Of a DNA stretch of 64,000 bases, positions 14,734 through 62,205 are shown piece after piece (position 1 is the stretch's first letter; each line of letters begins with the position of its first letter). A program made the translations under genes and the position numbers. The notes under the pieces are model-generated. The model had not been told where the DNA came from and ran no database searches. It saw nothing but the letters and a program-made list of their open reading frames with translations. Origin of the DNA: a virus; IMG/VR virus record IMGVR_UViG_3300017527_000761; one strand, given 5' to 3'.

Positions 14734-15341
14734 TGGATCCATTTTTATTTAACCTTGCCAAGGCTCTCGCTTCAAAAAATGAAGTGCAAGGTAAGTCAAT
14801 TTTAGAGGTGGGTAGTTGTAATGTAAATGGGTCTTTCAAGGCAATTTTTCAGGAACTCGGTCCAAAAAAATACACCGGCGTAGATATTGTTGAGGGCCCA
14901 AATGTAGACCTTGTATGTGATGTTAAAAATATTGTAAAACAGTTTGGTAAAGGAAGTTTTGATATAGTAGTTTGTACAGAAGTAATAGAGCATGTAGAGG
15001 AGTGGAGAATTGCTATCACAAATATGATGGAAGTTTTAAAGATAGGAGGTATTATATATTTAACTTCACGTTCAAGAGGCTTTGGAATACACGGCTATCC
15101 AAGTGATTATTGGAGGTATGAAATAGAAGATATTAAAACCATATTTAGAAAATATGATATTTTAGTACTTCACAAAGATCAATTTCAGGACGATCATTTT
15201 GGATTTTTTTTAAAAGCAGTAAAAATTAATAATAGTTTACCTGATCTTTCTCGACATTGTTTATATAATATAAATACAGATCTCCCAGAAAATACTCTAG
15301 GACTTGAAAATAATAATATAAAGAGAACACTAGAACAATGA
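14733..15341 (+). CDS. SAM-dependent methyltransferase (class I)
   Basis: Motif I ILEVGSCNVNGS and the IVVCTEVIEHVEEW region typical of Methyltransf_11-type enzymes. Confidence 0.55.
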   Translation: MDPFLFNLAKALASKNEVQGKSILEVGSCNVNGSFKAIFQELGPKKYTGVDIVEGPNVDLVCDVKNIVKQFGKGSFDIVVCTEVIEHVEEWRIAITNMMEVLKIGGIIYLTSRSRGFGIHGYPSDYWRYEIEDIKTIFRKYDILVLHKDQFQDDHFGFFLKAVKINNSLPDLSRHCLYNINTDLPENTLGLENNNIKRTLEQ

Positions 15342-16657
15342 CTCCGATAGGAATACCTGATAGAAGTAGATTTTCTAGTATACCAAGTACATCCACTTCT
15401 GGATGGAAAGGAAATATACAATATCATCAGGCAAAGAAAGCTGGACCACACTATGATCTCAGATTAAGTCCACCAGGTTCAAGTGATGCTTTATCGTGGG
15501 CAGTTAGAAATTTTCCCGGTCCGGGACAAAAGACAAAAGCTATCGAACAACCAACTCATGAAAGTTCTTATATGGGTTGGGAAGGTAAGATAGAATCAGG
15601 ATACGGTGCAGGCACAGTAAAAAGTATGTTCTTTGATAAAGTGGAAGTATTAGAATCTAAGTCAGATAAAATATTATTCAATTTATATCGTGGTCAAGGA
15701 GTTTTTAGATATATGTTACTCAAGACTAGTGGTAAAGATTGGCTCCTATATAATTATACAGGACAGACAGGAGAAAAAGTTCCTGACTACAAGCCACACT
15801 ATAAGTCTATTAAAATTGAACAGCTCAAGTCAGATCACAAGGATGAAGTTTGGGCACCGAAGCTAGATGGTGCACATAACACGGTAGTTATACGACCTAA
15901 CAAAAGACTTGATACATACTCATATAGAGTAAGTAAAAAATCTGGAGGCCAAATAGATCATTCATATAGAACAGATCTTTACAAGACTCGTGGACCAGTC
16001 GACCTTGGAAACACAGTTGTTAGAACAGAGTTATATCTTCCAGGTAAAGACTCTTCTACGCTTGGCGGAATTTTAAACTCAAACGTATGGAAAGCGAGAG
16101 ATACTCAAGTTCGAACTGGGAAAGTTAAGCCAGCTATGATAGACATAGTCAAGTTCAGAGGTAAGAATGTAGAAAAAAGTCCGTATGAAGAAAAGCTCAA
16201 GATGTTAAAAGAAATATCAGAAAAAATACCTGAGCTCGAATTACCTCCTTTGGCTTATACACAACAAGAAAAAATGAAACTTAAAAACGATATACTTTCG
16301 GGCAAACACCCGCTAACGCGGGAGGGAGTAGTAGTCTATAAGTTAAAAGAGGCAGTCCCTTACAAATCAAAGTCAAGTGAAGACTTTGACGTTCTAATAA
16401 CTGGAGTGTTCAGTGCTAGTTCCGGCAGCAAGTACGAAGGCAACGCCATCGGAGGGTTCGTTGGAATCCCAGAAAATAGCAAAACCAAGATAAGAGTAGG
16501 ATCGGGGCTTTCTGATGAATTACGAAGAGAAGCCTATTTAAATCCAAATAAATTTATAGGCAATTGGATTAAAGTAAAAGGACAAATGAAATATTCAGGA
16601 ACTGGAAAAATAAGAATGCCAATTTTTAAAGAATTCAGAACGGAGAAGTATAAATAA
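15338..16657 (+). CDS. ATP-dependent polynucleotide ligase with N-terminal LigD-type 3'-phosphoesterase domain
   Basis: N-terminal HYDLRL...SWAV...YMGWEGKIESGYGAGTV matches the LigD PE-domain signature. Ligase motif I WAPKLDGAHN (KxDG) and motif IV REGVVVYK (EGxxxK). Confidence 0.6.
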   Translation: MTPIGIPDRSRFSSIPSTSTSGWKGNIQYHQAKKAGPHYDLRLSPPGSSDALSWAVRNFPGPGQKTKAIEQPTHESSYMGWEGKIESGYGAGTVKSMFFDKVEVLESKSDKILFNLYRGQGVFRYMLLKTSGKDWLLYNYTGQTGEKVPDYKPHYKSIKIEQLKSDHKDEVWAPKLDGAHNTVVIRPNKRLDTYSYRVSKKSGGQIDHSYRTDLYKTRGPVDLGNTVVRTELYLPGKDSSTLGGILNSNVWKARDTQVRTGKVKPAMIDIVKFRGKNVEKSPYEEKLKMLKEISEKIPELELPPLAYTQQEKMKLKNDILSGKHPLTREGVVVYKLKEAVPYKSKSSEDFDVLITGVFSASSGSKYEGNAIGGFVGIPENSKTKIRVGSGLSDELRREAYLNPNKFIGNWIKVKGQMKYSGTGKIRMPIFKEFRTEKYK

Positions 16658-17148
16658 TGAGTTCTGGAATTTACAAAATAGCTAACAAAATAACTGGAGA
16701 TTTTTATATTGGGTCAACTAACAATATAACAAGAAGATTTGGGGAACACAAAACCCATTTAAAAAACAATAAACATCCGAATATAATATTGCAAAGGGCA
16801 TGTAACAAATATGGCTTGGAAACTATGCACTTTCAACCTGTAGAATTAGTTAAGGATATAAATAATTTAACTACTAGAGAGCAGTATTATTTGGATACAT
16901 TAGATCCTAAATATAACATTCGAAGAGTGGCTAACAATAATTTAGGTATGAAACATTCTGGTAAAACAAAAGAAAAAATATCTAAAAGTAAAGCACAGCC
17001 ATTTAAAATTATAAGTCCCACAGGGAAACTAATTTCAGCCATAGGACTTAACAGATTTTGCAGAGAACATGACTTAGATGCAGGACATCTAAGTAAAGTT
17101 ATTCTCGGTCAGAGGAAATCACATGTTGGGTGGACACAAGCTTTGTAA
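16657..17148 (+). CDS. GIY-YIG homing endonuclease (free-standing)
   Basis: SGIYKIANKITGDFYIGST (GIY-x10-YIG), conserved R and E, C-terminal DNA-binding-like region. 1-nt overlap with the ligase stop. Confidence 0.75.
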   Translation: MSSGIYKIANKITGDFYIGSTNNITRRFGEHKTHLKNNKHPNIILQRACNKYGLETMHFQPVELVKDINNLTTREQYYLDTLDPKYNIRRVANNNLGMKHSGKTKEKISKSKAQPFKIISPTGKLISAIGLNRFCREHDLDAGHLSKVILGQRKSHVGWTQAL

Positions 17149-21717: not shown

Positions 21718-23265
21718 ATGTCTCAAGTTATACACACAACTAAAGCAGATTTTGCTGAGAATTTCTTGTATCTGAATGGTCATCAATTATCATTGAATGA
21801 CTACCCACATTTACGCGCAATTTACAATTCAGATGCGCCAGAGTCCGTCTATATGTTTTCAAGACAGACGGCGAAGTCTACCACTTTATCTAATCTTATG
21901 ATAACAAATAGTGTGATGTATAATTATTTCAAGTCTCTCTATATTTCTCCTACAGTAGACCAAACAAAAGTGTTTTCTCATGATAGAGTGAACCCAGTGC
22001 TCGAGGGTAGTCCGCTTATCAAGGAACATTATATGAATTCGTCATTAGTTCAAAACGTATTTATGAAACAACTCTTGAATGGTTCGAGAATGTACTTGAG
22101 GTATGCACTCTTAAATGCTGACAGAATCAGAGGGTACTCTGCTGACATGAATATATTTGATGAAGTGCAGGATTTAAGAGAAGATATTATTCCTGTAATA
22201 CAGGAAACCATGTCGCGTTCTATGTTCAAGTGGAGCTTGTATGCGGGGACCCCAAAGCGCAGTAAAGGAACTCTTGCAAATATTTGGGACAGATCTACTA
22301 AAAATGAGTATATCCTGAAATGTCAGTCATGTAATCATTGGAATATATTAGGTCCTGATAATATTGGTGATCTTGGAGTTGTGTGTAATAAATGTGGAAG
22401 ATCGCTTGATGTTAAGCAGGGAGGGGAATGGGTATCTACTTTTTCTTTAACTAAAAAACCAGTACTAGAAGGATTCAGAGTTTGCTTATTACATTTTGAT
22501 AAAGCTCCGTGGGTAGACTGGGAAAAAGATGTACTTGGCAAGAGAGAAAAATACTCTACTGCTAAATATCATAATGAAGTACTTGCACTTGAATATGATG
22601 AAGGAACATCTCCTATAACTGAAGCAGACTTAGTCAAGAATTGTAGATCAGAATATGTTATGTCTGGAGAACCAAACGACCTTGATGTTTCGTACAAGAG
22701 TATTATGGGAATTGATTATGGCCCAATAAATTCAGAAAATTCTCACACAGTTATTACTATAATGCAAAAACGTGGAGATAGATACCATGTTTTATACTTG
22801 AAGAAATTTTTAGGTAAGGAAGCAGATTATGCTTACATACATCGACTGATTCCTGAACTCATGGAGAAGTGGAAAGTAGTACATCTTGCTGCTGACTACG
22901 GTATGGGTGAAGCACCAAATTCAGAAATCCGTAGTAAAGTAGGACATAATAAGGTAATTGCTTTCCAACATTTACCTACACAGAAAGAAAAAATTAGATG
23001 GAATCCAAAGATGCCTGCTTACACTCTTAATCGTAGTCAAGTGATGAATGAACTGTTTCAGGAAATTAGAAAAGGAAACATGGTTTTGCCTCGTTGGGAC
23101 GATTTTGAGCCATTTAAAGATGATTTTCTCAATGTTCAAATGGACTATGATGAGGAAAAGAATAGCATGAAGTACATCAGTATAGGTCCTGATGATGCAG
23201 TACATTCAACACTTTTCTGTAAAGTAGCGCTTGACCTAATGCATGGAATTGCAAATTTTTCTTAA
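21718..23265 (+). CDS. terL: terminase large subunit
   Basis: Walker A-like FSRQTAKSTT, Walker B IFDEVQDL, and a C-terminal nuclease-like region with conserved acidic residues. Confidence 0.75.
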   Translation: MSQVIHTTKADFAENFLYLNGHQLSLNDYPHLRAIYNSDAPESVYMFSRQTAKSTTLSNLMITNSVMYNYFKSLYISPTVDQTKVFSHDRVNPVLEGSPLIKEHYMNSSLVQNVFMKQLLNGSRMYLRYALLNADRIRGYSADMNIFDEVQDLREDIIPVIQETMSRSMFKWSLYAGTPKRSKGTLANIWDRSTKNEYILKCQSCNHWNILGPDNIGDLGVVCNKCGRSLDVKQGGEWVSTFSLTKKPVLEGFRVCLLHFDKAPWVDWEKDVLGKREKYSTAKYHNEVLALEYDEGTSPITEADLVKNCRSEYVMSGEPNDLDVSYKSIMGIDYGPINSENSHTVITIMQKRGDRYHVLYLKKFLGKEADYAYIHRLIPELMEKWKVVHLAADYGMGEAPNSEIRSKVGHNKVIAFQHLPTQKEKIRWNPKMPAYTLNRSQVMNELFQEIRKGNMVLPRWDDFEPFKDDFLNVQMDYDEEKNSMKYISIGPDDAVHSTLFCKVALDLMHGIANFS

Positions 23266-45113: not shown

Positions 45114-46724
45114 ATGGCTTATGTAAAACCCGGAGTTGAAATTGTACAAGAAGCTAAAACAACTACTCCTGCGTTAATTACCCCAGATCTTGAAGGCGTA
45201 CTTATTGGTAATGGATACCATTGGCAAGATCCTTCTTCAGATCTATCAATTGTCGAAGGAACCACTTATGACGGACAGTCTACAGATGTTATACTTAGCG
45301 GAATTAATTCTGTTTTCTATCAAGTAGGTGATTTGGAAGAAATGGTTGTAGTAGATTTAATTACAGTTTCTGGAAACGGAATAGGGGATGTGACTCATCT
45401 AGTTTACACAGATGATTACACAGTAGCCAATGATACAGTAACTATATCAGCAAATGCAGCATACCAAAGTAATTTATACCAAATAAGAATAGGCTTTCTA
45501 GCACTTAAGAATGCTAGTGACTATGGATATAAAAATCTTTATTCGCTGGCTGATGTAGAAGAAACTATTGGAGAACCCGTATCTTGGAACCCGCTAGCAT
45601 TTGGTGCAAGACTAGCAATGTTAAATTCTGGTCGTGAAATGAATGTATTAAATGTGTCAGGGGTTGGTCAAGTAGATATGGAAAACGCTGTTGATAGTTT
45701 ACTTAGTACGAGAGAAGTGTATGCTATTGCACCAGTTACACATAATATAACTATAGGCGCAATGCAAACTCATGTAGATACACAATCATTAGCTATAAAT
45801 AAAAAAGAGAGAATTGCTATCATGAATCAGGACCTTTCAGGTTTTTGGGCAGGAACAGCTTTCTCAACAGACAACACAGAAAAAACGACCACAGCGACAT
45901 CTATAAGAGATGCAAATATTGCTTATCTTGATAGAAGAGTTGTTATTACACACCCAGATGTGGCATATATAACAGAAACTCGTCATATCAGTACAATTAG
46001 CCCGACATGGATTGCTAATAGCTTTACTGGAACTTCTGCGGGGTTTGCATCTTATGCTTTAAAAGCAAAATTTGCATTTGATGCGTTTATAAACAACAAG
46101 AAGTATAAAGCTGGTACAGAGATTACTGCTGCAATATGGGCAGAAGTCAAAGACGCTGGATGGGCAGGTGGAGATGGTATGGTAACAGTAAAAGTTCCTG
46201 TTCCTGGTTATTACTACCCAGCTATGGTAGTAGGACAAATTATTGGGGAGTTCCCAGAACAACCTTTAACTAATTTACCAACTACAGGATTAGAAGAAAC
46301 TTACGGTTCTGGCGATTATTTTAATGAAGCACAACTGAATATAATGGCTGAGGGCGGAACTTATATTATGGTTCAGACAAATCCTAGTGCTCCTATAGTA
46401 TCTAGACATCAGTTAACTACTGATATGACTCAGGTATCTAAAAGAGAATTAAGTATTGTCAAGGCTCTTGATTATGTAGCTAAGTTCATTAGAAAATCAA
46501 TGGTACCTTACATAGGTAGATATACTATTACACCGGCATTCTTAAAGCTTGTTAATTCAATATTAATTAGTATTTCCTTGTATCTGACACGAGAAGGTAG
46601 AATAGCAGATATGAAAATATTATCAGTTGCTGTTGATGATATCGCACCGGATACTATCAGAGTAACCGTGGATATTAAAGTTAAGTATCCAGTTAATTAT
46701 ATTAAAGTAACCTTACTATTCTAA
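45114..46724 (+). CDS. tail sheath-like protein (tentative)
   Basis: N-terminus MAYVKPGVEIVQEA resembles the conserved sheath N-terminus (T4 gp18 MTLLSPGIELKET). 536 aa. SD GGAGGA. Confidence 0.4.
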   Translation: MAYVKPGVEIVQEAKTTTPALITPDLEGVLIGNGYHWQDPSSDLSIVEGTTYDGQSTDVILSGINSVFYQVGDLEEMVVVDLITVSGNGIGDVTHLVYTDDYTVANDTVTISANAAYQSNLYQIRIGFLALKNASDYGYKNLYSLADVEETIGEPVSWNPLAFGARLAMLNSGREMNVLNVSGVGQVDMENAVDSLLSTREVYAIAPVTHNITIGAMQTHVDTQSLAINKKERIAIMNQDLSGFWAGTAFSTDNTEKTTTATSIRDANIAYLDRRVVITHPDVAYITETRHISTISPTWIANSFTGTSAGFASYALKAKFAFDAFINNKKYKAGTEITAAIWAEVKDAGWAGGDGMVTVKVPVPGYYYPAMVVGQIIGEFPEQPLTNLPTTGLEETYGSGDYFNEAQLNIMAEGGTYIMVQTNPSAPIVSRHQLTTDMTQVSKRELSIVKALDYVAKFIRKSMVPYIGRYTITPAFLKLVNSILISISLYLTREGRIADMKILSVAVDDIAPDTIRVTVDIKVKYPVNYIKVTLLF

Positions 46725-50047: not shown

Positions 50048-50851
50048 TTATTCAAGGTACTCTCTGAGCTGGTTTGAGTATTTATCGTCTTTTAATTTAC
50101 CAATTGTTTTTTCTTTTATTTGTCTTATTCTTTCTCTAGTTAAACCTTTGTCGACACCAATTTCTTTTAAAGTATAGGGTCTAATTTGGTCTATACCAAA
50201 ATACATTATTAAAATATCTCGTTCTCTTTCAGAAAAATCATCTAAAATATATTTTAGTTCATCTTTTATATCTTCAATTGTTATTTGCATGTCTGCTGCA
50301 GATTTATTAGGAAGTATATGATTTAGATCTTTGTCATTTTCTGTCCTTGGTGCATCTATGTCAATAATTCCATAATTATATTTAACAGCATTCGCTACTT
50401 CTTCGTTATCTGTAAGTTCTAACAATTCGTCGGTTGTTAGGCTTCTACCTAATTCTTGTTCTAATTCTTTTTTAACTTTATTTAATTTAGATAATTCCAT
50501 AATAACATTTAGAGGTAATCTTATTACTCTAGCATTATCATGAATTGCTTTCATAATTGACTGACGAATCCACCAGACAGCATAAGTTATAAATTTAAAG
50601 TTACGATCAACTTCGAATTTTTTAAAAGCTGTAATTAATCCGAAGTTTCCTTCTTGTATTAGTTCGTCCAGTGGTAACCCTTGATTTTGATATTTTTTAG
50701 CCACACTTACCACAAACCTCAAGTTCCGATTCATAAGTTCGTCATAGGCTTGTCTGTTACCAGCTTTAGCTTTATCTATAACTATTCTTTCTTCTTCTTT
50801 TGTAAAAGGAGGAAACTTTCGGATTTCTTTTAAATATTGTTCAATTGCCAT
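50048..50851 (-). CDS. sigma-70 family RNA polymerase sigma factor
   Basis: Region 2 ([41 protein letters not shown]) and region 4 HTH ([28 protein letters not shown]). Confidence 0.8.
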
Positions 50852-51091
50852 TTAACTCCCTTTTGGTTTCAAATGTTCAACGGATTTTCCGTCATCGATC
50901 ATTTCACATATAGTACATTTTTTTATCCGTTTTCTTCCATTACAATTTTCAGGGTTTTCCCAGTTATGAAATGTACGATCCCATTTTAAATCATCGATAT
51001 CCATATCAGTTTGTATATTTACAATTTCTTTAAAGTCTTTTGATTGTCGCCTGTGTTGTCTGCCATCGTCTGGCTTATTGTAAAATTCCAT
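50852..51091 (-). CDS. small Cys-cluster protein (79 aa)
   Basis: C-x7-C-x2-C (CNGRKRIKKCTIC). Translationally coupled to E1 upstream and sigma downstream. Confidence 0.4.
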   Translation of the reverse strand: MEFYNKPDDGRQHRRQSKDFKEIVNIQTDMDIDDLKWDRTFHNWENPENCNGRKRIKKCTICEMIDDGKSVEHLKPKGS

Positions 51092-51696
51092 TATAATGTA
51101 TGAATAAATTCTGCGGGGTTAGGGTCTCCACGCAACCAGTTTAAAATATAACTTACGCCATAACTTGCGGCGTGAATATTTCCACGCTGTACAATACCTT
51201 GTTCTAATTCCCAGGCATTTTGACAACTACCATCCTCAACATCTTTATCCGGCAAAGTATTCAACATAGATTTATATGTATGTTTTTTACTTTTAGTGTA
51301 TGTTGCATAAGATTTTCCTTCACTACGTAGATCAATCCAATATACTTTTGGGTTATCATTAAAAACGTAGTCAAATAGCATTTTTCTAAATTTTGTATTA
51401 TCTACAGCTGCTATTATACAATCATATCCTTCGAATACATCTTTGGTTTCTATTTTTTGGTTAATGCCTTCTTCCATTCCGTACCTAGCTGAAATTATTT
51501 CTACTTTCGGATCCAGAACATCTGATTTATTAAAGTTTTGATAAGGCAGATTTTTAGTATCTACATCATCATAATCGGCAAAAGTTATTAGTGCTGTCGT
51601 TATTTGATTTGTTTTTCTAAGGCGGTCAAGCTCTGGTGCTATCCATGAACCAATACCCCCCGCTCCAACAATTAAAATATTTTTTACTTTTTCCAT
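51091..51696 (-). CDS. ThiF/MoeB-type E1-like adenylyltransferase (compact, 201 aa)
   Basis: ILIVGAGGIGSWIAPELDRL Rossmann motif, DYDDVDTKNL, CIIAAVDN. No fused E2 or rhodanese domain. Confidence 0.7.
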   Translation of the reverse strand: MEKVKNILIVGAGGIGSWIAPELDRLRKTNQITTALITFADYDDVDTKNLPYQNFNKSDVLDPKVEIISARYGMEEGINQKIETKDVFEGYDCIIAAVDNTKFRKMLFDYVFNDNPKVYWIDLRSEGKSYATYTKSKKHTYKSMLNTLPDKDVEDGSCQNAWELEQGIVQRGNIHAASYGVSYILNWLRGDPNPAEFIHTL

Positions 51697-51736
51697 GTTT
51701 TCTATTCTCTTTAGATGCTTTAAAATTAAAAAGGTT

Positions 51737-52222
51737 TCATCTTACATACAGATACGCCCCACCGAAGCCTCTGTCACCTCTATAAGTGGCCGTAGCGACA
51801 CTTGAATCATCCGATCCTTCGTTATACCAGGCCATTAAATCATTATATAAATTTGAGTAAATCACGTATATTCCAGCATACCCAGCCCCTTCAATATCCA
51901 TTTCAGATGGAATTGGCCGCCAATAAGGATGGTTGTGAAATACACCAACAAAAGAAAGTGGTGCTTTTGGATTCATGTGTACTTGACTATTATTCAATAC
52001 CTTACTTAAAAGTTCATTTCCGTCCATCACGTAGTCAGCTACTCCAACGCCAGCTATATTTTTTATTGGAACAAAGCTGACCATTTTATATAATCCAAAA
52101 TCTTTGTCAATAACATTGCCCATTATAGCACCACAAATTTCCTTGTCTGGAGACGTCTTTGCGTATTGTATCAATTCATTTAATTGCGTATAGGTTAACA
52201 AGAGTCCATGTTTTTTGTCCAT
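51737..52222 (-). CDS. JAB/MPN (JAMM) metalloprotease-like protein
   Basis: Upstream Glu (EICGAIMG) and complete HxHx7Sx2D: HNHPYWRPIPSEMD. Confidence 0.7.
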   Translation of the reverse strand: MDKKHGLLLTYTQLNELIQYAKTSPDKEICGAIMGNVIDKDFGLYKMVSFVPIKNIAGVGVADYVMDGNELLSKVLNNSQVHMNPKAPLSFVGVFHNHPYWRPIPSEMDIEGAGYAGIYVIYSNLYNDLMAWYNEGSDDSSVATATYRGDRGFGGAYLYVR

Positions 52223-52440
52223 ATTTCCTCATTATTACTAAGTTGATAGTTTAAATGTCGTCCAAATAAACTATCAATTTCTTGTTTTAAGTTGTGTATT
52301 ATTTGTTTGATTGTTTTTCTTTCTTTTTTATGTGTTAATCTTTTTGTATATTTACCAGGTTCTTCTCCCTGTGGGTGTAATCTAGATTTCCAATATTCTT
52401 TCCCTTGATGTCCTCTTTTTTCAGCACTTATACCATTCAT
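52195..52440 (-). CDS. small basic protein (81 aa)
   Basis: K/R/H-rich ORF. 28-nt overlap with the JAB gene start. Confidence 0.35.
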   Translation of the reverse strand: MNGISAEKRGHQGKEYWKSRLHPQGEEPGKYTKRLTHKKERKTIKQIIHNLKQEIDSLFGRHLNYQLSNNEEIWTKNMDSC

Positions 52441-52464
52441 ATAAAATACCTCGATTAAATGAAT

Positions 52465-52480
52465 ACTAACGCGGGGTTTC
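52465..52480 (-). terminator. GC-rich hairpin (possible partial terminator/attenuator) inside the operon
   Basis: GCGGGGTTTCCCCCGC between the Ubl gene and downstream genes. No clean U-tract. Confidence 0.3.
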
Positions 52481-52500
52481 CCCCGCGCTTAAATAACAGG

Positions 52501-52767
52501 TTACCCTCCTACGAGAGCATTAGTTAAAATGACATACTCTGCATCTAATAATTTTTCTACAGTTAAATTATTTGGATTTTGTTGTACTCCATCAATATAT
52601 AACCATTTTTTACTATTAGCTGTTTCATTTTGTATCCTCGATAATGCTATTTCAGGGACATCTTCCCAATCATCGTGTCCTTTCGAACTTACAACTCTGA
52701 CTCTTACTTTACGTTCAAGTTGTTCCTGAAACTCTTCAATATCTAATGTTTCTTTATTTTCGTCCAT
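52501..52767 (-). CDS. ubiquitin-like beta-grasp protein (MoaD/ThiS-like) ending in Gly-Gly
   Basis: 88 aa with C-terminus ...EYVILTNALVGG-stop (compare MoaD ...DEVAFFPPVTGG). KVRVRVVSS beta-strand start. Confidence 0.55.
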   Translation of the reverse strand: MDENKETLDIEEFQEQLERKVRVRVVSSKGHDDWEDVPEIALSRIQNETANSKKWLYIDGVQQNPNNLTVEKLLDAEYVILTNALVGG

Positions 52768-52787
52768 GTGTTTAGTTGGTTAACCAA

Positions 52788-54944
52788 TCAGTTTAAAGTG
52801 TGGATATCTTGCGCTAACGCATGATCATTTGATAACGCATATAAGCGGTTTACTAGTTTATCTTTACCAACCTGAGAAGTAGATTTGTCGACTATACATA
52901 TGTATCTTCCTGAGGGGTATTCATAAACCTCGCATTTTTCCGAGTTTGCTACCACATATTGTCTAAGTTTTCCGTTTACTATATAACCCTCTCGAACAGT
53001 GATTTCATTCATTTGAATATCTTTTCGTTTTTCTAACTTGAGGGTTTTTTCTGTTTCTTCTAATAATTTTTTACTTTTATCAATAGCAGATTGAAATTCT
53101 ATTTTAGCTAATTTAAGAACACTTTTTGCGTCATCAATAGTCATACCTTCGATAACTTTATCTCCGAGCAAAAGTTCCATAATTTCGCCTAGATCACTCA
53201 TGTTCTGTGTATTTATAAGCCTGTTTGTATCTCTAACTTTATATTCGTTGTCTCCTAATACAATATACATTAAATTTTTTCTACGTTCAAGCGGTAACTT
53301 GAAAGAAAATCCTTCGTTATATCTCATTCCAGACACTTGAAAATCTACTCCTGTCTGGAGGTATCTGTGGAATTTTAGAGAACAGCTGCTTACGTTAGAT
53401 AAAAATTCATTAAAATCTTCTTGAGTTTCATAACACACCGCCCTTCTTAAACAATCCAGAATTTCCATTTTATTTATTCTGTGGTCATTCAAGTAAGTTT
53501 TTGTGCTAGTTATATTAGCTCTATTAGTAGATTCTTCATATCTAAGTGCAAAAGACACATCTCCTATTTCACCCTTTGAATTTTCTCGAGAAATGGTTCT
53601 AATAAATTCTTCAAATACCGAATCCCAATTTATATCATCAAATTTATATGCCCTACTTAAACGCAATAAAGAAGTGTATACCCAATCAGCTTTATCAGAT
53701 CGTTTTAAAATTTGTTCTTCATATTCAATAGAATCTTTTTTGATAGTCATTCCATTTAGTATTAATTTTTTACCAGCTTTTATAGTTTCTATTTTTTGCT
53801 TTAATTTAGTTTCAAGAGCCTTTTTTTCATCTTCCTCTTCTTTTTTACGTCGTATATCCTCAGAGAATTTTTTTACAGATAATTTTAATTGTGACGCGTC
53901 ATATAATTGTGTGTCATTTCCTGTAATGTGCCTTACAATCCATTGTAAGGCTTCTCTTGTAGGTAAGGTAACTTCCTCGGTAAATAAAAGTTTACCAAAC
54001 ACCCCAGTTTTAGATATAGGAATTGTAGTATAACTATAATGATTTCTACGATCTATAACACAAATTCTATCGATATCTGCATAATTAAAAAGATCATCCT
54101 CATGATTTAATAAAAATAATCGTCTGTAAGATGATTTCCTATAATGATCTTTAGTGTATAATGAAATTATTCCAAGTCTGTGATTGTCTTTTTCTAAAAT
54201 TCCTTCAATATATCCCAGAGCTTCTCCCCGATCTCCAAAATTTTCAGATAGTAGTTGTTTTTCTAAAACATCATCTTTTGTCTCTGTTTTCTTTGCTCCC
54301 GGAAGTAACCAATCACACATTTCAATTATTTTATCGAAGGAGTCGTCGAATTCTTTTGAACTATTTATAGCAAGGCCATCATTCAATTCTTCTGCTTTTA
54401 TTTTTTCAAAAATTCTTGGTCCGTTCGTAACTTCTATCAACCAGGTCAGATCATCATAAACTTCAATCCCATTGTGTTTTTCTATTTCTTCATCATTTAA
54501 TGCATGTATTTCCATTTCACTACAATAGTGCAAATTCTCTAATAATGTGTATAATTGCTCAGGCACAATTGTTTTAACTTTAATGCAATTTCTTCCACCA
54601 CCGGTTAAAAATTCTGGTCGTAGTTCAAAATAAGAGGTTGTAGTAGCAGGAAGAGTTTCTTTTCCTTCCTCCTCATCATCTTCTTCGTCGGGATGTCCTG
54701 CATGAATTTCCAATCTACCTTCCCAAGAATCAGAGACATACATAGTGTGGGTTATAGTGTTTACCCCATTATCTATTATGTGGCTTATAGTTCCCACACT
54801 AGTATTCTTGAATGGTTTTCCTAAGTCTTTTAATTTTTCAATTACCTCGTCATGGACGGAAAAAGCTTTTTGCATTTCGTCTTCTGAAAACTTAAGTTCA
54901 TACATTTCGTTGAATAGAGGTAAAGTTTGTTGTGTTACTTTCAT
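52788..54944 (-). CDS. large hypothetical protein (718 aa) co-transcribed with the Ubl/E1/JAB genes
   Basis: No motif recognised. Acidic patch HPDEEDDEEEG and several Cys. First large gene of the operon. Confidence 0.5.
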   Translation of the reverse strand: MKVTQQTLPLFNEMYELKFSEDEMQKAFSVHDEVIEKLKDLGKPFKNTSVGTISHIIDNGVNTITHTMYVSDSWEGRLEIHAGHPDEEDDEEEGKETLPATTTSYFELRPEFLTGGGRNCIKVKTIVPEQLYTLLENLHYCSEMEIHALNDEEIEKHNGIEVYDDLTWLIEVTNGPRIFEKIKAEELNDGLAINSSKEFDDSFDKIIEMCDWLLPGAKKTETKDDVLEKQLLSENFGDRGEALGYIEGILEKDNHRLGIISLYTKDHYRKSSYRRLFLLNHEDDLFNYADIDRICVIDRRNHYSYTTIPISKTGVFGKLLFTEEVTLPTREALQWIVRHITGNDTQLYDASQLKLSVKKFSEDIRRKKEEEDEKKALETKLKQKIETIKAGKKLILNGMTIKKDSIEYEEQILKRSDKADWVYTSLLRLSRAYKFDDINWDSVFEEFIRTISRENSKGEIGDVSFALRYEESTNRANITSTKTYLNDHRINKMEILDCLRRAVCYETQEDFNEFLSNVSSCSLKFHRYLQTGVDFQVSGMRYNEGFSFKLPLERRKNLMYIVLGDNEYKVRDTNRLINTQNMSDLGEIMELLLGDKVIEGMTIDDAKSVLKLAKIEFQSAIDKSKKLLEETEKTLKLEKRKDIQMNEITVREGYIVNGKLRQYVVANSEKCEVYEYPSGRYICIVDKSTSQVGKDKLVNRLYALSNDHALAQDIHTLN

Positions 54945-54963
54945 GTTGTCTGTGTTTTATTAT

Positions 54964-55395
54964 TTAATCGAAAAGTTCGCCTTTGACCGGCTTTGGTTTT
55001 TCTTCGTCAACCATTGTTGATTTCAAATCATCTTCAGTAATTTCGCATGTAGTTAATACGAGATAATTGTTTTTGTCCGGATACACAGCTAATTTTTTAT
55101 CTACGAAGTCCTTTAATTTATCAACTCCATGATATTTCATTAATTGTGCTACCGCAGACATTGGAGAAATTCCATTTTTACCAGTTGAATACCAAAGACC
55201 TTTAATATCTTTTTCTCCTTTGTAGTCTTCTATCCAGCAGTCCGAGATAGTGAATGTTCTGCCATTTTCATCTTCTACAGTAAATTCAACTTTTTCAGAT
55301 ACCTTATCTGGCATACTTACACTTTTTAACCTTATATCTTTAACCGTAACATCTCTATCTAAACTACCAATAGCTTTGTTTAAGAAGTCTTCCAT
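54964..55395 (-). CDS. hypothetical protein (143 aa), first gene of the operon
   Basis: ORF preceded by tandem 21-nt direct repeats. Confidence 0.5.
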   Translation of the reverse strand: MEDFLNKAIGSLDRDVTVKDIRLKSVSMPDKVSEKVEFTVEDENGRTFTISDCWIEDYKGEKDIKGLWYSTGKNGISPMSAVAQLMKYHGVDKLKDFVDKKLAVYPDKNNYLVLTTCEITEDDLKSTMVDEEKPKPVKGELFD

Positions 55396-55419
55396 ATTGT
55401 TTTCTGTCTGATTGTATTT

Positions 55420-55463
55420 TATTTATTAAATGTTTCGCATAGTATTTAATAAATGTTCCGCAT
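55420..55463 (-). repeat. two tandem 21-nt direct repeats (ATGCGRAACATTTAWTAAATA on minus strand)
   Basis: TATTTATTAAATGTTTCGCAT and TATTTAATAAATGTTCCGCAT, 23 nt start to start, between the nrdJ stop and the 143-aa gene start. Confidence 0.6.
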
Positions 55464-59273: not shown

Positions 59274-59936
59274 TTATAAAGCCTTTGACCAATGAGTTAT
59301 AGTTTTTATTTCTCCTTTATAGAAGATTTCATCTTCTGGTAAATTATTAGGATCTAGATACCATGTGGTATGTCTTGCAATATAAGGAAACCCTGTTCTA
59401 AATGAACGAGACCATGCGGAATTTTTCCTCGGGTCGTGCATAGCAAAAGTAGTATCTACATCAGCTTTATATAACCCTGGTTCTATTTCTGTTTTCCAAA
59501 ATTGATCCTCCCATCCCAGAACAGATTCTTTATGAGGAAAATGATCCGGAATATCATCTATCTTAAGTCCCATTCCTAATTTTAAATGTTGAGGATATTT
59601 TTTTAGCACAGCATAAAGATGGTGTATAAGGTCTGCTGGGCATTCTTCAATAGGAACTACGTCCGGGTCTGTATATACAAAATGTTCTTTTTTAAACCTA
59701 TTGGTGTATAGACCAGATTTCCAAAGAGCCTCATGACCCAAATTGTTACCCAACATAATTATTTCGTAGGGTAAAGTTTTATAATATTCAAGCAAAGGTT
59801 CATAAATAGACCCGTTATCAAGTATCACAACCGGATTAGGTAGTTTTTTATCTACAATAAAATTAATTAATTGTTTTAAACAAGTTAGTCTATTAAATGA
59901 ATTAATTATAATAGGTATATTATCTGCATTCATCAA
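59274..59936 (-). CDS. glycosyltransferase (GT-A/GT2-like)
   Basis: IPIIINSFNRLTCL...VVILDNGS...YTDPD resemble GT2 N-terminal motifs and DxD. Confidence 0.5.
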   Translation of the reverse strand: MMNADNIPIIINSFNRLTCLKQLINFIVDKKLPNPVVILDNGSIYEPLLEYYKTLPYEIIMLGNNLGHEALWKSGLYTNRFKKEHFVYTDPDVVPIEECPADLIHHLYAVLKKYPQHLKLGMGLKIDDIPDHFPHKESVLGWEDQFWKTEIEPGLYKADVDTTFAMHDPRKNSAWSRSFRTGFPYIARHTTWYLDPNNLPEDEIFYKGEIKTITHWSKAL

Positions 59937-60768
59937 AAAACTCCTTCATTTCTGTTAATTGCTTTAGTAATCCAGGTGGATCCCAAGTATCACAGACTAA
60001 ACTTCTGTCACACGGATTAGGCCCAGTAGTTTTATTTATTGTTAAGCCGAGATGATATACAGTATTTATCATAGTTAATAAATCAAATTTATTTATTGCT
60101 CGGCTTGCGTATGTAATTAAATCTTCTGTTTGGCCGTTATCTAATCCATTAGATAATAATCCATCTATGTACTTAGCTAATTCTAAAGTAGTGACTCCAC
60201 TCCAAATGTGGTCTGTCCAACCCTGTACTTCTTTCCCCTTTTGTGATATAGCCCATTCAAGGAGCGAATATTTATTAGCTAATTCTTCTCCTATTATGGA
60301 GGTACGTATTACTAAAGTATCTGTGCTTTCACAGGCCTCTCCTAAACTTTTAGACATTCCATACAAGTCTGTGGCATCTGGTATGTCGTCGCTTCTATAA
60401 TTTCCGCGATTACCAGTAAATACACAATCAGTAGATATATGAATCATTGCTACGTCATGTCCAGCTTCAGTTAATCTAGAAACATATTTAGAGAGTTGTA
60501 TAGGAAACGCAGAGTTTATTTTGAGTACTTCTTCCACAGACATATTTTTAATTCTGGGTTTGACTATTCCTGCACAATTTATAATTACCGTAAGGTAATC
60601 ATTATAATTTACTAACATGGGTCTTAAGTTTTCAATTGAATCATTTAATATATCAAACCCACTAGTAGGTATATCGATAACGTCGTAAAGTTTACTCTGC
60701 TTAAGATACTTGCTAACTACGTTACCTAACATCCCGGTTGATCCAAATATTACTACTTTATCTGTCAT
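59920..60768 (-). CDS. dTDP-4-dehydrorhamnose reductase-like SDR (RmlD-like)
   Basis: VIFGSTGMLG (TGxxGxxG) and YGMSK (YxxxK). Size about 280 aa. Confidence 0.55.
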   Translation of the reverse strand: MTDKVVIFGSTGMLGNVVSKYLKQSKLYDVIDIPTSGFDILNDSIENLRPMLVNYNDYLTVIINCAGIVKPRIKNMSVEEVLKINSAFPIQLSKYVSRLTEAGHDVAMIHISTDCVFTGNRGNYRSDDIPDATDLYGMSKSLGEACESTDTLVIRTSIIGEELANKYSLLEWAISQKGKEVQGWTDHIWSGVTTLELAKYIDGLLSNGLDNGQTEDLITYASRAINKFDLLTMINTVYHLGLTINKTTGPNPCDRSLVCDTWDPPGLLKQLTEMKEFFDECR

Positions 60769-61223
60769 CTTTCATCCGCCGCAAAAAAGTGGTCGTTTTC
60801 GTTATTATAAGTAAATCGAATATCGTCAATTTTACTTTCTTCTGTGGTACTTGATGAGAATACCATTAATTTAGAATCTGGAGTTAATAATTTAAAACCA
60901 TTAGCATAGCCAGGTGGCACATAAAATACTGCGGGCTTATTAGCCGAAATAGTTTCTCTTGCTTGTATATCCCAATTCAGATTCCATTCGTTTTTGTATA
61001 ACATCATTTGTGCTGCTACAATAATGGCACTGCCTGACAACATAGTAAAATACTTAGCTTCTCTTTCATGTCCATGCCAAGCACGAATAAATCCCGGGAC
61101 ATGGTTTGATACTATGTAATATCTCTTAATGGGAGTTAAATCTAAATCATTATTAAATTCTACTATCCCTCTGTCATCTACAAAAATAGTTCCTTCATAT
61201 AATTTTGGTTCTGGTAATATCAT
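60765..61223 (-). CDS. cupin-fold sugar 3,5-epimerase / 3,4-ketoisomerase (RmlC/FdtA-like)
   Basis: FVDDRGIVEF, WHGHERE, YVPPGYANGF cupin motifs. Confidence 0.55.
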   Translation of the reverse strand: MILPEPKLYEGTIFVDDRGIVEFNNDLDLTPIKRYYIVSNHVPGFIRAWHGHEREAKYFTMLSGSAIIVAAQMMLYKNEWNLNWDIQARETISANKPAVFYVPPGYANGFKLLTPDSKLMVFSSSTTEESKIDDIRFTYNNENDHFFAADER

Positions 61224-61227
61224 AATT

Positions 61228-62205
61228 TTAAATTTGTTTTATGTCTAAGCCAGTTAAATAGGCTTGGTTAGAATATCTTGTATTATCTAAGTTTTTTATA
61301 CGTTTTGTTTCCACAAGATATTTAATTTCTTCGATGCCCTGATCTATCGAACAAGTTGGATTAAATTTTAAACCGACTCGAGCTTTTTCGCTGGACACTC
61401 TATAGTTTCTTGTGTCTTGAAATGGCATTTCAGTGTGGTTAATTTGCATATCCGGAAAATGATTTCTAACCTGATAAGCAAGATCAATTATTCTTACGTT
61501 TTGTTTGTGAATGTTATATATTCCCTGTGCGGGAGAGTATAAATTATCTACAACCGTATGAGCAACGTCTTTAACGTGTAAGAGAGGTCTGAACTGGTCT
61601 CCACCGAACACATCTATTTTACCATCTGTGTGCGCTTTGGCTGTCAATATATTTACGACTAGGTCTAATCTGATACGCGAATATTTATCTCCTACACCAA
61701 ATAAAGTTCCAAGTCTATATATAATTGCATTTTTTGGTTCTAAGTATTTTTCTGCATTCAATTTAGTAATTGCATATGCAGAAAGGGGGTTAGTTGGTGA
61801 GGTCTCATCAAGTTCTTTATCTTGAGCACCATAAACAGAGCAAGTGGATAGAAATACAATCCTTCCATCATAATTCTCTGCAAGCCACTTAATTGAATCC
61901 TCGTTCAACTCTTTAGTTAGGTCAGGATTAATTTGACATGCCCCATCTCCTACGAGAGCTGCGAGCCATATCACTGAATGTGCTTTCTTGAGTAGTGGCA
62001 ATAGTTTTTCCCTATCTCTAATATCGCCATATATAAAATTTACATCCTTACGAAATGAATCTTCGTACAAGAGATTATCGTAAACAGTAACTTCGTGTCC
62101 TACATAACCAGGGATACGCTTAGGAAGGTCTCTATCTTTCAAGAGCATGTCTACAATTGCTCCACCTACATACCCTGCTCCTCCAACTACTAAAATTCTA
62201 TTCAT
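61228..62205 (-). CDS. NAD-dependent sugar epimerase/dehydratase (extended SDR)
   Basis: VVGGAGYVGGAIV Rossmann motif. SAYAITK (YxxxK). Confidence 0.65.
   Translation of the reverse strand: MNRILVVGGAGYVGGAIVDMLLKDRDLPKRIPGYVGHEVTVYDNLLYEDSFRKDVNFIYGDIRDREKLLPLLKKAHSVIWLAALVGDGACQINPDLTKELNEDSIKWLAENYDGRIVFLSTCSVYGAQDKELDETSPTNPLSAYAITKLNAEKYLEPKNAIIYRLGTLFGVGDKYSRIRLDLVVNILTAKAHTDGKIDVFGGDQFRPLLHVKDVAHTVVDNLYSPAQGIYNIHKQNVRIIDLAYQVRNHFPDMQINHTEMPFQDTRNYRVSSEKARVGLKFNPTCSIDQGIEEIKYLVETKRIKNLDNTRYSNQAYLTGLDIKQI

What the first reader, a model, noticed from the sequence alone, without database searches (positions are those of the whole stretch)
50852..55463. Phage-encoded ubiquitin-like protein, ThiF-type E1 and JAB/JAMM operon inside the replication and nucleotide-metabolism module
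Seen in sequence: an 88-aa ORF (52501..52767) ends exactly in ...NALVGG-stop and reads like a MoaD/ThiS beta-grasp protein. A 201-aa ORF (51091..51696) carries the ThiF/MoeB Rossmann signature ILIVGAGGIGS...DYDDVD. A 161-aa ORF (51737..52222) carries a complete JAMM motif (E...HNHPYWRPIPSEMD, which is HxHx7Sx2D). These are co-oriented and tightly packed with a 143-aa gene, a 718-aa gene, an 81-aa basic gene and a 79-aa Cys-cluster gene, none with a recognisable family. The operon then continues into the sigma factor, family-A DNA polymerase and dNMP kinase. Established: bacterial Ubl, E1 and JAB triads act either as sulfur carriers (CysO/MoeZ/Mec+, thioquinolobactin QbsE/C/D) or as protein-conjugation systems (Bil/6E-type, which also need an E2). 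In phages these domains are best known from tail assembly (lambda gpI Ubl and gpK JAB), not from a replication operon. No E2-like gene is visible and the E1 is minimal (no rhodanese or E2 fusion). Inference: this is either an E2-independent conjugation system tagging a phage or host protein during early infection, or a sulfur-carrier system feeding a nucleotide or DNA thio-modification. The two large orphan genes would be the candidate partner enzyme or target. I am not aware of this gene neighbourhood having been described.
Basis: partly seen in the sequence, partly recalled or inferred. Interest (0 to 1): 0.85.

Follow-up and report, generated by a model that had tools for sequence, protein, structure and literature searches.

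The report
Virus-encoded ubiquitin-like tagging gene cassette
This phage carries a compact four-gene set (a ubiquitin-like protein, its activating enzyme, a trimming protease and a large unknown partner protein) that recurs in many uncultivated marine viruses of bacteria and archaea and has not been described as a system, so viruses may run their own ubiquitin-like chemistry.

Summary
On the minus strand lie a 718-aa orphan gene, an 88-aa gene ending ...NALVGG-stop, a 161-aa JAB/JAMM peptidase (Pfam Prok-JAB, above cut-off) and a 201-aa ThiF-type E1 (Pfam ThiF, above cut-off). They sit between a class II ribonucleotide reductase and sigma-70, PolA and dNMP kinase genes. The 88-aa protein models as a beta-grasp fold whose top structural matches are all ubiquitin, NEDD8 or SUMO.

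The new result is that these are a conserved cassette. In 71 non-redundant viral or MAG loci, the 718-aa family (or its roughly 390-aa homologue) accompanies Ubl and E1 in 70, and JAB in 67. The cassette occurs in sigma-70/PolA phages and in magrovirus-like archaeal viruses. E1-JAB gene fusions exist. The GG is invariant, but 0-9 extra residues follow it. The four loci without JAB all have tail-less Ubls.

No E2 fold, rhodanese domain or sulfur-acceptor enzyme was found. The 143-, 81- and 79-aa genes are not core.

The most likely function is E2-independent Ubl activation and conjugation, SAMP-like, with the 718-aa family as obligate partner. A sulfur-carrier role is not excluded. Only the E1 had been noted before, as a viral "MoeB AMG".

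The parts
52788..54944 (-). 718-aa orphan protein, the 'partner' family. The conserved core is the C-terminal ~400 aa, with invariant or near-invariant C504, H526, G658, Y663, C683, D686, R700, N706, D707 and a terminal ...I.TL motif.
52501..52767 (-). 88-aa ubiquitin-like beta-grasp protein ending ...NALVGG-stop.
   Evidence: ORF. The AF2 model has beta-grasp topology. Foldseek top hits are NEDD8, ubiquitin and SUMO. G87 and G88 are invariant across both virus groups. Relatives carry 0, 1, 2, 3 or 9 residues after GG.
52468..52489 (-). GC-rich hairpin directly after the Ubl stop codon, a candidate terminator, attenuator or mRNA 3' stabiliser.
   Evidence: Found. A hairpin sits at the same place with a different stem sequence in L001 and L002. 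Folding energies are -18.6, -17.5 and -14.4 kcal/mol, with z-scores -2.4, -4.2 and -1.5.
52195..52440 (-). 81-aa basic ORF in a variable slot between Ubl and JAB. It is not core.
   Evidence: A homologue exists only in L001. It is absent in L002. A 276-aa gene occupies this slot in L077.
51737..52222 (-). 161-aa JAB/JAMM metallopeptidase, the predicted Ubl C-terminal trimming enzyme and deconjugase.
   Evidence: Pfam Prok-JAB above cut-off. E28, H96, H98, S106 and D109 are invariant. The closest solved relatives are 2kcq and Pyrococcus JAMM1 (5lda) at E ~1e-8. The only NCBIfam hit is 'desampylase' at 3.4e-10, below its cut-off. It is fused to the E1 in L090 and L096-L098.
51091..51696 (-). 201-aa minimal ThiF-type E1 (adenylation domain only) with invariant Cys158.
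   Evidence: Pfam ThiF above cut-off. G11, G13, G14, D41, D43, N49, Q53, K64, D99, R104, D122, R124 and C158 are invariant in 40 homologues. The [SG]C[QL] motif is present in 76 of 76 members. The PDB profile hits UBA3, SAE2, UBA5, MccB, Cap2, ThiF and MoeB over the N-terminal ~105-120 residues only.
50852..51091 (-). 79-aa small Cys-containing ORF between the E1 and sigma-70. It is lineage-specific and not core.
   Evidence: Homologues exist only in L001 and L002. Other small ORFs occupy this slot in L077.
54964..55395 (-). 143-aa ORF conserved only in the sigma-70/PolA phage group. It is probably not part of the Ubl system.
   Evidence: Homologues in L001, L002, L077 and L079 only. No Cys is conserved. 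It has no family or PDB match.

Best explanation
The region encodes a virus-borne, four-component ubiquitin-like system: partner protein (718 aa), Ubl (88 aa), JAB peptidase (161 aa) and a minimal E1 (201 aa).

Proposed mechanism:
1. The Ubl exposes a C-terminal Gly-Gly. In this phage it is made ready. In most relatives the JAB must first remove 1-9 extra residues.
2. The E1 adenylates the terminal glycine with ATP, and probably takes it onto its invariant Cys158 as a thioester.
3. The activated Ubl is passed on without a canonical E2, as in archaeal SAMP/UbaA sampylation. It goes to lysines of target proteins either directly or through the conserved cysteines (C504, C683) of the 718-aa family. 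That family is either the dedicated transferase or adaptor, or the main target.
4. The JAB also reverses the modification.

Shown here: domain identities, Ubl fold, invariant catalytic residues, the fixed gene cassette, fusions, and variable tails after GG. Inferred: adenylation, thioester formation, protein conjugation, and the role of the 718-aa protein.
For: - Domain calls are above Pfam cut-offs.
- The Ubl has a beta-grasp model with ubiquitin-family structural hits.
- GG is invariant while the tail after it varies from 0 to 9 residues.
- All four JAB-less loci have tail-less Ubls, against 47 of 67 tailed Ubls where JAB is present. The hypergeometric p is about 0.011 by my arithmetic, uncorrected for phylogeny.
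- E1-JAB fusion ORFs exist.
- E1 Cys158 is invariant, in 40 of 40 homologues and 76 of 76 members.
- The E1 has no rhodanese domain and no CxxC zinc motifs.
- The JAB is closest to the JAMM1/desampylase type.
- The partner family is present in 70 of 71 loci, with a fixed order partner-Ubl-JAB-E1 and abutting or overlapping genes.
- No sulfur-acceptor, PP-loop, rhodanese or desulfurase gene was seen nearby.
- The cassette is retained across viruses with bacterial-type (sigma-70, PolA) and archaeal-type (TFIIB-like, GroEL, ATP ligase) gene sets.
Against: - No biochemical data exist.
- The Ubl matches no Ubl sequence family, and its structural TM-scores are only 0.42-0.47.
- Two-residue tails after GG removed by a JAMM enzyme are also the hallmark of the sulfur carrier QbsE, and JAB, E1 and Ubl triads include CysO/Mec+.
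- The E1's best named sequence hits are ThiF-type sulfur-carrier adenylyltransferases, although far below their cut-offs.
- The usual Arg of the NLxRQ ATP-binding motif is Tyr or His in this family, so even adenylation is not guaranteed.
- The 718-aa protein has no recognisable fold, so its role as transferase or target is a guess.
- No target is known.
Confidence: 0.5

Rival explanations
1. Sulfur-carrier system. The E1 adenylates the Ubl, a host sulfurtransferase converts it to a thiocarboxylate, and the 718-aa family is the enzyme that uses this sulfur to make a thio-modified nucleotide, DNA or tRNA base, or cofactor. The JAB trims the pro-Ubl, as QbsD does, or releases an adduct, as Mec+ does.
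For: The best named E1 hits are ThiF or ThiS-adenylyltransferase models. Short tails after GG in JAB-containing loci mirror QbsE/QbsD, which I cite from established knowledge. The cassette sits among RNR, dUTPase and dNMP kinase genes in this phage. The partner has two invariant cysteines. Viromics pipelines already label such genes 'sulfur relay'.
Against: - The E1 has no rhodanese domain.
- No desulfurase, rhodanese, PP-loop or radical-SAM partner was found in the window or in annotated relatives.
- In magrovirus-like viruses the cassette sits next to TFIIB-like and GroEL genes, and RNR is nearby in only 28 of 48 loci.
- The JAB is nearest to desampylase-type enzymes.
- The partner has no known sulfur-insertion fold.
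Confidence: 0.2
2. Counter-defence module. The virus uses its own JAB, E1 and Ubl to interfere with host ubiquitin-like immunity (Bil, type II CBASS Cap2/Cap3, or archaeal SAMP-proteasome). It could strip host conjugates, act as a decoy Ubl, or mark host defence proteins.
For: PADLOC gives weak hits of the JAB and E1 to CBASS-type JAB and E1-E2 models. Bacterial Ubl pathways act in antiphage immunity (PMC10557695 and PMC11601596). The genes lie in an early or middle expression region.
Against: The hits are weak and cover only the domains. A cassette this strictly conserved, with a large dedicated partner, across bacterial and archaeal viruses is unusual for anti-defence genes, which tend to be patchy. 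Nothing links the hosts to Bil or CBASS.
Confidence: 0.1
3. Non-protein ligation. The E1 activates the Ubl C-terminus, or the conserved ...TL C-terminal tail of the 718-aa protein, for amide, ester or phosphoramidate formation with a small molecule or nucleic acid. This would be MccB- or PaaA-like chemistry rather than lysine conjugation.
For: MccB and PaaA are among the E1 profile's PDB hits. The most conserved segment of the partner is its C-terminal tail, which is modelled with low confidence as if it were a flexible peptide.
Against: A GG-ended beta-grasp protein and a JAB are present in essentially every locus, which fits Ubl chemistry. The partner's residues after ...TL vary and are not small, so it makes a poor E1 substrate.
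Confidence: 0.07

Closest known systems
Archaeal sampylation (SAMP1-3, E1 UbaA, desampylase HvJAMM1/PfJAMM1)
   Same: It has a small beta-grasp Ubl ending in GG, a single stand-alone E1, a stand-alone JAMM peptidase and no E2 or E3. The window JAB's closest solved and named relatives are PfJAMM1 (E 1.4e-8) and 'desampylase' (E 3.4e-10). The cassette is abundant in viruses assigned to archaea.
   Different: All scores are far below the family cut-offs: UbaA 21.8 bits against 450, and desampylase 39.9 bits against 130. The E1 is about 70 residues shorter, lacks the CxxC zinc motifs and has NLxYQ in place of NLxRQ. The system is virus-encoded and always comes with a large orphan partner that SAMP systems lack.
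Bacterial sulfur-carrier triads (CysO/MoeZ/Mec+; QbsE/QbsC/QbsD)
   Same: These also combine a Ubl ending in GG, an E1 and a JAMM enzyme. A 2-residue tail after GG, as on QbsE, is removed by the JAMM enzyme. Tails of 1-2 residues are the commonest state in the viral family.
   Different: MoeZ and QbsC carry a rhodanese domain, which is absent here. No CysM-like or other sulfur-acceptor enzyme is nearby. The genomic context is viral replication and transcription genes.
Bil (BilABCD), Bub, and type II CBASS Cap2/Cap3 antiphage ubiquitin-like pathways
   Same: These use E1-like adenylation of a C-terminus, a JAB (or other) peptidase that pre-processes and deconjugates, and protein conjugation in prokaryotes (PMC10557695, PMC11601596). 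PADLOC gives weak domain-level hits to the CBASS JAB and E1-E2 models.
   Different: Those systems have an E2, separate or fused. Bil E1 has two adenylation domains. CBASS activates a CD-NTase. Bub uses oxyester chemistry and a serine protease. Here there is no E2 fold, a single 201-aa E1 and no CD-NTase, and the system is on the virus side rather than the host side.
Lambda/T1 tail-assembly gpI (Ubl) and gpK (JAB plus NlpC/P60)
   Same: This is a phage-encoded Ubl with a conserved C-terminal Gly, together with a JAB domain (PMC1779556). The window JAB hits PHROG 5556 'tail protein'.
   Different: Here there is no NlpC/P60 domain, no TAPI-C domain and no adjacency to tail genes. An E1 is present. 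The cassette lies between RNR and sigma/PolA on the opposite strand from the structural module.
Viral 'MoeB/ThiF AMG' of predicted archaeal viruses, and E1-like genes of Asgard (Nidhogg) viruses
   Same: This is very probably the same E1 gene family as the MoeB/ThiF reported among the most prevalent AMGs of predicted archaeal viruses (PMC8276007). A link to ubiquitination was suggested there and for Asgard viruses.
   Different: Those reports note the E1 alone and propose hijacking of host Ubl systems. The virus-encoded Ubl, the JAB and the partner family, and the presence of the cassette in sigma-70/PolA phages, were not described in the papers I could search.
PRTRC (ParB-related, ThiF-related cassette) of ICEs and plasmids
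   Same: It is a mobile-element-borne minimal ThiF-family protein. It is the second-best NCBIfam hit of the E1 (E 1.6e-11) and the best hit of the E1-JAB fusion.
   Different: The score is 44 bits against a cut-off of 144.75. None of the other PRTRC proteins match the Ubl, the JAB or the partner. There is no ParB.

Membership tests
E1-like / ThiF superfamily (PF00899) | Rossmann-type adenylation domain with a GxGxxG loop, scoring above the Pfam gathering score | tested here: met
   52.4 bits against a cut-off of 28.1. GAGGIGS is invariant.
E1-like / ThiF superfamily (PF00899) | Conserved catalytic Asp (Mg/ATP) and Lys/Arg of the adenylation site | tested here: met
   D41, D43, K64, D99, R104 and R124 are invariant in 40 homologues. 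However, the Arg of NLxRQ is replaced by Tyr or His.
MoeB/ThiF sensu stricto | Two CxxC zinc-binding motifs | tested here: not met
   C158 is the only conserved Cys, and no CxxC is present. Scores are far below the NCBIfam ThiF and MoeB cut-offs.
MoeZ / QbsC / Uba4 sulfur-carrier E1 | C-terminal rhodanese domain | tested here: not met
   The protein is 201 aa and ends after the adenylation domain. There is no rhodanese hit.
JAB/JAMM metallopeptidase (PF14464) | E...HxHx7Sx2D motif, scoring above the Pfam gathering score | tested here: met
   30.9 bits against a cut-off of 25. E28, H96, H98, S106 and D109 are invariant. 69 of 70 magrovirus-like JABs keep HxHx7SxxD.
Ubiquitin-like beta-grasp modifier or carrier | Beta-grasp fold | tested here: met
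   The AF2 model has pLDDT 81.5 and topology bb-a-bb-(a)-b. The Foldseek top 30 or more hits are ubiquitin, NEDD8 or SUMO at probability 0.9-0.99, with modest TM of 0.42-0.47.
Ubiquitin-like beta-grasp modifier or carrier | Conserved C-terminal Gly-Gly | tested here: met
   G87 and G88 are invariant in 32 sequences. GG is present in all 79 non-redundant loci, followed by 0-9 residues.
ThiS / MoaD / ubiquitin sequence families (Pfam) | Match to a family HMM | tested here: not met
   No Pfam or NCBIfam Ubl hit. The PDB profile search found nothing. hhalign against E. coli ThiS gives probability 5%.
Archaeal SAMP/UbaA/JAMM1 system | E1 and JAMM belong to the UbaA and desampylase equivalogs | tested here: not met
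   UbaA scores 21.8 bits against 450, and desampylase 39.9 bits against 130. Desampylase is nonetheless the only NCBIfam hit of the JAB.
Archaeal SAMP/UbaA/JAMM1 system | E2-independent isopeptide conjugation to lysines | not testable with these tools
   This needs biochemistry. The absence of an E2 is consistent with it.
Bil / 6E-type ubiquitination | UBC-like E2 with a catalytic Cys in the operon | tested here: not met
   The 143-aa protein has no conserved Cys. The 718-aa model has no E2 or any other fold match. There is no PADLOC Bil hit. The lone 'HPN' ORF is a GIY-YIG endonuclease.
Type II CBASS Cap2/Cap3 | E1-E2 fusion plus a CD-NTase | tested here: not met
   Only weak domain-level hits, with a best E of 2.7e-6 to the E1 part of E1-E2 models. 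The E1 is a single domain, and no CD-NTase is present.
Lambda I/K tail-assembly module | JAB fused to NlpC/P60, Ubl with a TAPI-C domain, adjacent to tail genes | tested here: not met
   The JAB is a stand-alone 161-aa protein. The Ubl is 88 aa and ends at GG. The location is the replication module. The definition is from PMC1779556.
PRTRC cassette | PRTRC_ThiF equivalog plus PRTRC proteins A-E and ParB | tested here: not met
   44 bits against a cut-off of 144.75. No PRTRC hits for the other cassette proteins.

The most novel reading that the evidence does not exclude
The 718-aa family and its ~390-aa magrovirus-like homologue form a previously unrecognised class of Ubl-handling enzyme. It would be an E2/E3 analogue with no UBC fold that receives the Ubl from the minimal E1 on its invariant cysteines (C504, C683) and ligates it to viral or host proteins. 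Tailed viruses of both bacteria and archaea would then carry an independently evolved, self-contained ubiquitin-like conjugation machine used during early infection.
Probability: 0.3. Interest if true: 0.9.

Novelty: new variant of a known kind. Interest (0 to 1): 0.72.

Why it matters
Ubiquitin-like conjugation in prokaryotes has recently been shown to be a host weapon against phages (Bil, Bub, CBASS Cap2/Cap3). This cassette would be the mirror image: a complete, minimal Ubl system carried by the viruses themselves. It is conserved across abundant uncultivated marine viruses of both bacteria and archaea, and it always travels with a large protein family that has no known fold or function.

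It also gives a concrete and cheap experimental system. Four genes can be co-expressed in E. coli to ask three questions:
- How can Ubl transfer work without an E2?
- What does the orphan family do?
- Are the 'MoeB/mec sulfur-relay AMGs' routinely counted in viromics really metabolic genes at all?

Tried and rejected
- blastn and tblastn of the region and of the 718-aa protein against about 50,000 GenBank phage records found no match. Only distant jumbo-phage ThiF genes appeared, in unrelated contexts.
- The Ubl profile against PDB sequences, and against E. coli ThiS by hhalign, gave nothing significant.
- The 718-aa family gave nothing against Pfam (59 members) or PDB sequences.
- No fusions of the 718-aa family with Ubl, E1 or JAB were found among 149 representatives.
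- The 143-aa protein was rejected as an E2 because it has no conserved Cys. It has no PDB or family hit. Its acidic ...ELFD tail suggests an SSB-like protein, but that is only a guess.
- Motif scans of all window ORFs for PP-loop, rhodanese, radical-SAM, UBC-HPN and further GG-ended proteins gave only chance hits.
- The shared ...HTL C-terminus of the E1 and the 718-aa protein is not conserved for the E1 beyond close relatives, so I did not build on it.
- A scan of genome contigs with the 59-member partner alignment failed for lack of a conserved stretch.
Full report
**What is there.** The window is a tailed-phage genome fragment, 100% identical at protein level to a 103,690-bp JGI metagenome contig. 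The structural module is on the plus strand, with terminase at 21718-23265 and a sheath-like protein at 45114-46724. The replication and nucleotide module is on the minus strand from about 47.5 kb onward. Read in the direction of transcription, the minus strand carries these genes:

- dUTPase
- class II RNR (NrdJ, 434 bits against a cut-off of 400)
- a 143-aa ORF
- a 718-aa ORF
- the 88-aa ORF ending NALVGG-stop
- an 81-aa ORF
- the 161-aa JAB
- the 201-aa E1
- a 79-aa ORF
- an RpoD/RpoS-like sigma-70 (E 1e-67)
- PolA
- a dNMP-kinase-like gene

**Domain identities.**

- *E1.* It matches Pfam ThiF at 5.3e-14, above the gathering score.
- *JAB.* It matches Pfam Prok-JAB at 2.6e-7, also above the gathering score. 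E28, H96, H98, S106 and D109 are invariant.
- *Ubl.* The 88-aa protein has no sequence-family hit. An AlphaFold2 model built from 31 close homologues (mean pLDDT 81.5) has the beta-grasp order of elements after an N-terminal helix. All of its best Foldseek PDB matches are NEDD8, ubiquitin or SUMO, at probability up to 0.99, E from 2e-3 and TM 0.42-0.47. UniRef already auto-labels one homologue 'Ubiquitin-like domain-c...'.

**The cassette is conserved far beyond this phage.**

- The E1 has 107 homologues, all stand-alone proteins of about 200 aa.
- Scanning IMG/VR with an E1 alignment gave 76 loci. Clustering their ORFs showed two groups.
- Group 1 is the window's own group: L001, L002, L077 and L079, plus L003/L004. 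These are contigs of 60-215 kb. L001, L002, L077 and L079 keep the order RNR, ~130 aa, ~700 aa, Ubl, (variable insert), JAB, E1 ... sigma-70, PolA, DNMK. L003/L004 keep p718-like, Ubl and E1 next to sigma-70 and PolA, without a detectable JAB or RNR in the locus.
- Group 2 is about 70 marine contigs of roughly 90 kb. They carry GroEL (Cpn60, 3e-44), ATP-dependent ligase, class II RNR and a weak TFIIB-like zinc ribbon and cyclin match. This gene set is reported for magroviruses of Marine Group II archaea (PMC5434244).
- Group 2 also has a ~68-aa Ubl, a ~185-aa E1 and a ~190-aa JAB carrying HTHPx7SGTD.

**The 718-aa protein is the fourth component.**

- An exhaustive HMMER search found 452 family representatives at 50% identity. 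The conserved core is the C-terminal ~400 residues.
- Invariant or near-invariant residues include C504, H526, G658, Y663, C683, R700, N706, D707 and a terminal I.TL motif.
- With this deeper profile, the ~390-aa magrovirus-like family c8 is clearly homologous: hhalign probability 96.8%, E 2.4e-10, 251 collinear columns. A JAB-against-JAB control with shallow profiles gave only E 8e-3.
- A second IMG/VR scan seeded with the 718-aa family, independent of the E1, returned 33 loci. All 33 have Ubl and E1 directly downstream and 32 have JAB, always in the order partner, Ubl, JAB, E1.
- Pooling everything gives 79 non-redundant Ubl plus E1 loci. Of the 71 with enough flanking sequence, 70 have the partner and 67 have JAB.
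- Other arrangements include partner-Ubl-E1 with abutting or overlapping genes and no JAB (L004, L011, L162). There is also E1-partner-Ubl in a Bathyarchaeia-binned contig, and the partner abutting the E1 in a Micrarchaeota-binned contig.
- By contrast, the 143-aa gene is confined to group 1 and has no conserved Cys. The 81- and 79-aa genes occur only in the nearest relatives. I treat these three as passengers.

**Evidence that the components work together as a Ubl system.**

1. Both C-terminal glycines are invariant, but what follows them is not. The counts are no residues in 27 loci, one in 12, two in 37, three in 1 and nine in 2. This is the signature of a pro-Ubl that must be trimmed to expose GG.
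2. All four JAB-less loci have Ubls that stop exactly at GG, whereas 47 of 67 JAB-containing loci have tailed Ubls. The hypergeometric p is about 0.011 by my arithmetic, not corrected for relatedness. Twenty JAB-containing loci, this window among them, have tail-less Ubls, so the JAB probably also deconjugates.
3. E1 and JAB are fused into one ORF of about 400 aa in several Poseidoniales-binned contigs, each preceded by a Ubl.
4. The E1 keeps the nucleotide loop, D41, D43, K64, D99, R104 and R124, and a single invariant cysteine. C158 is conserved in 40 of 40 homologues, and the S-C-Q motif in 76 of 76. C158 lies 59 residues after D99. From memory, this is about the spacing of the crossover-loop Cys184 from Asp127 in E. 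coli ThiF, so I infer a covalent-catalysis cysteine.
5. A GC-rich hairpin follows the Ubl stop codon in the window, L001 and L002, with different stem sequences. This suggests the partner and Ubl are expressed as the 3' end of one transcription unit, possibly at a higher level than the enzymes.

**What it is not.**

- *Not a lambda I/K tail module.* There is no NlpC/P60 and no TAPI-C domain, an E1 is present, and the location is the replication module.
- *Not a member of the ThiF, MoeB, MoeZ, UbaA, PRTRC or desampylase equivalogs.* All scores are far below cut-offs.
- *No sulfur-transfer partners.* The E1 lacks rhodanese and both CxxC motifs, and has NLxYQ where E1s normally have NLxRQ. No desulfurase, rhodanese, PP-loop or radical-SAM partner was seen in the window or in Pfam-annotated relatives.

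**Most likely mechanism.** The nearest functional analogue is archaeal sampylation: a GG-ended Ubl, a lone E1, a lone JAMM and no E2. The JAB's closest solved and named relatives are PfJAMM1 and 'desampylase'. I therefore favour E2-independent activation and conjugation at about 0.5. The steps would be:

1. JAB trimming of the Ubl where a tail is present.
2. Adenylation of the terminal glycine by the E1.
3. Thioester formation on C158.
4. Transfer to lysines, with the 718-aa family as transferase, adaptor or principal target.
5. Reversal by the JAB.

Everything after 'the domains and motifs are intact and always co-inherited' is inference. The sulfur-carrier alternative (about 0.2) remains open. 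Tails removed by a JAMM enzyme, and the ThiF-like best hits, are exactly what QbsE/C/D-type systems show. SAMP and Urm1 systems do both jobs. Counter-defence (about 0.1) and non-protein ligation (about 0.07) are less likely.

**Prior knowledge.**

- The classic survey of prokaryotic Ubl systems covers phages only for the lambda/T1 tail module (PMC1779556).
- The magrovirus papers I could search do not mention ThiF, JAB or ubiquitin.
- RaFAH noted a MoeB/ThiF gene as one of the most prevalent AMGs of predicted archaeal viruses and linked it to ubiquitination (PMC8276007).
- Viromics studies count thiF, moeB and mec as 'sulfur relay' AMGs (PMC10134843).
- Asgard-virus E1-like genes were proposed to hijack host Ubls.

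I found no description of the virus-encoded Ubl, the JAB, the partner family, their fixed cassette, or their presence in sigma-70/PolA phages. The library searched is incomplete, so this is absence of evidence.

**Verdict.** This is a real, strongly conserved, virus-borne ubiquitin-like cassette with an orphan fourth component. It is a new variant of a known kind of system. The function is unresolved but directly testable.

Noticed in passing
window 52468-52489 (- strand); L001 9204-9228; L002 9484-9506: A stable GC-rich hairpin sits immediately after the Ubl stop codon in three genomes, with different stem sequences. Folding energies are -18.6, -17.5 and -14.4 kcal/mol. It may be a terminator, an attenuator or an mRNA 3' stabiliser separating partner-Ubl from JAB-E1.
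   Followed up: partly
L090 2312-3493; L096 1711-2970; L097 499-1830; L098 7875-9083: E1 and JAB are fused in one ORF of 393-443 aa in contigs binned as Poseidoniales, Euryarchaeota or Verrucomicrobia. The JAMM variant is HTHPRDAYWS(A/S)TD. Each fusion is preceded by a Ubl ending GGF, GGLC or GGQ.
   Followed up: partly
L001 2745-6233 and 11640-14425; L077 630-3599 and 9872-11977; L079 13179-15506: Relatives carry an intein-like insertion in the RNR (1162 aa in L001; Intein_splicing plus HNH_3 in L077). Their PolA genes are split by inserted ORFs. The window's RNR (852 aa) and PolA (597 aa) are uninterrupted.
   Followed up: no
window 59274-62205 (- strand): A run of sugar-nucleotide genes lies inside the replication module: RmlD-like reductase, an FdtA/RmlC-like cupin, an NAD-dependent epimerase/dehydratase and a possible glycosyltransferase. 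This could serve DNA or surface glycan modification.
   Followed up: no
L079 (GCA_001595875.1, LSSF01000041.1, 104.6 kb): A contig deposited in a 'Thermoplasmatales archaeon SG8-52-4' MAG carries sigma-70, PolA, RecU and the full cassette. It is probably a bacteriophage contig mis-binned into an archaeal genome.
   Followed up: no
magrovirus-like loci such as L037 8770-9663; window 50048-50851: In the archaeal-type viruses a TFIIB-like gene lies between the partner homologue and the E1, in 47 of 48 loci. In the window's group a sigma-70 gene lies just downstream of the E1. A transcription-initiation factor therefore neighbours the cassette in both virus types.
   Followed up: no
window 52788-52805 and 51091-51105 (C-termini of the 718-aa protein and the E1): Both proteins end in ...(I)HTL(N) in the window, L001 and L002. 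The motif is near-invariant in the partner family but is kept in the E1 only among close relatives, so it may be coincidence or a shared docking motif.
   Followed up: partly
window 15338-17148 (+ strand): An ATP-dependent DNA ligase (PHROG 114) is followed directly by a GIY-YIG-type endonuclease ORF. Magrovirus-like contigs also carry an ATP-dependent ligase near their cassette.
   Followed up: no
window 50852-51091 (- strand): The 79-aa ORF has a C-x8-C-x2-C cluster conserved in L001 and L002. Its start overlaps the E1 stop and it abuts the sigma-70 start. It could be a small zinc-binding regulator.
   Followed up: no
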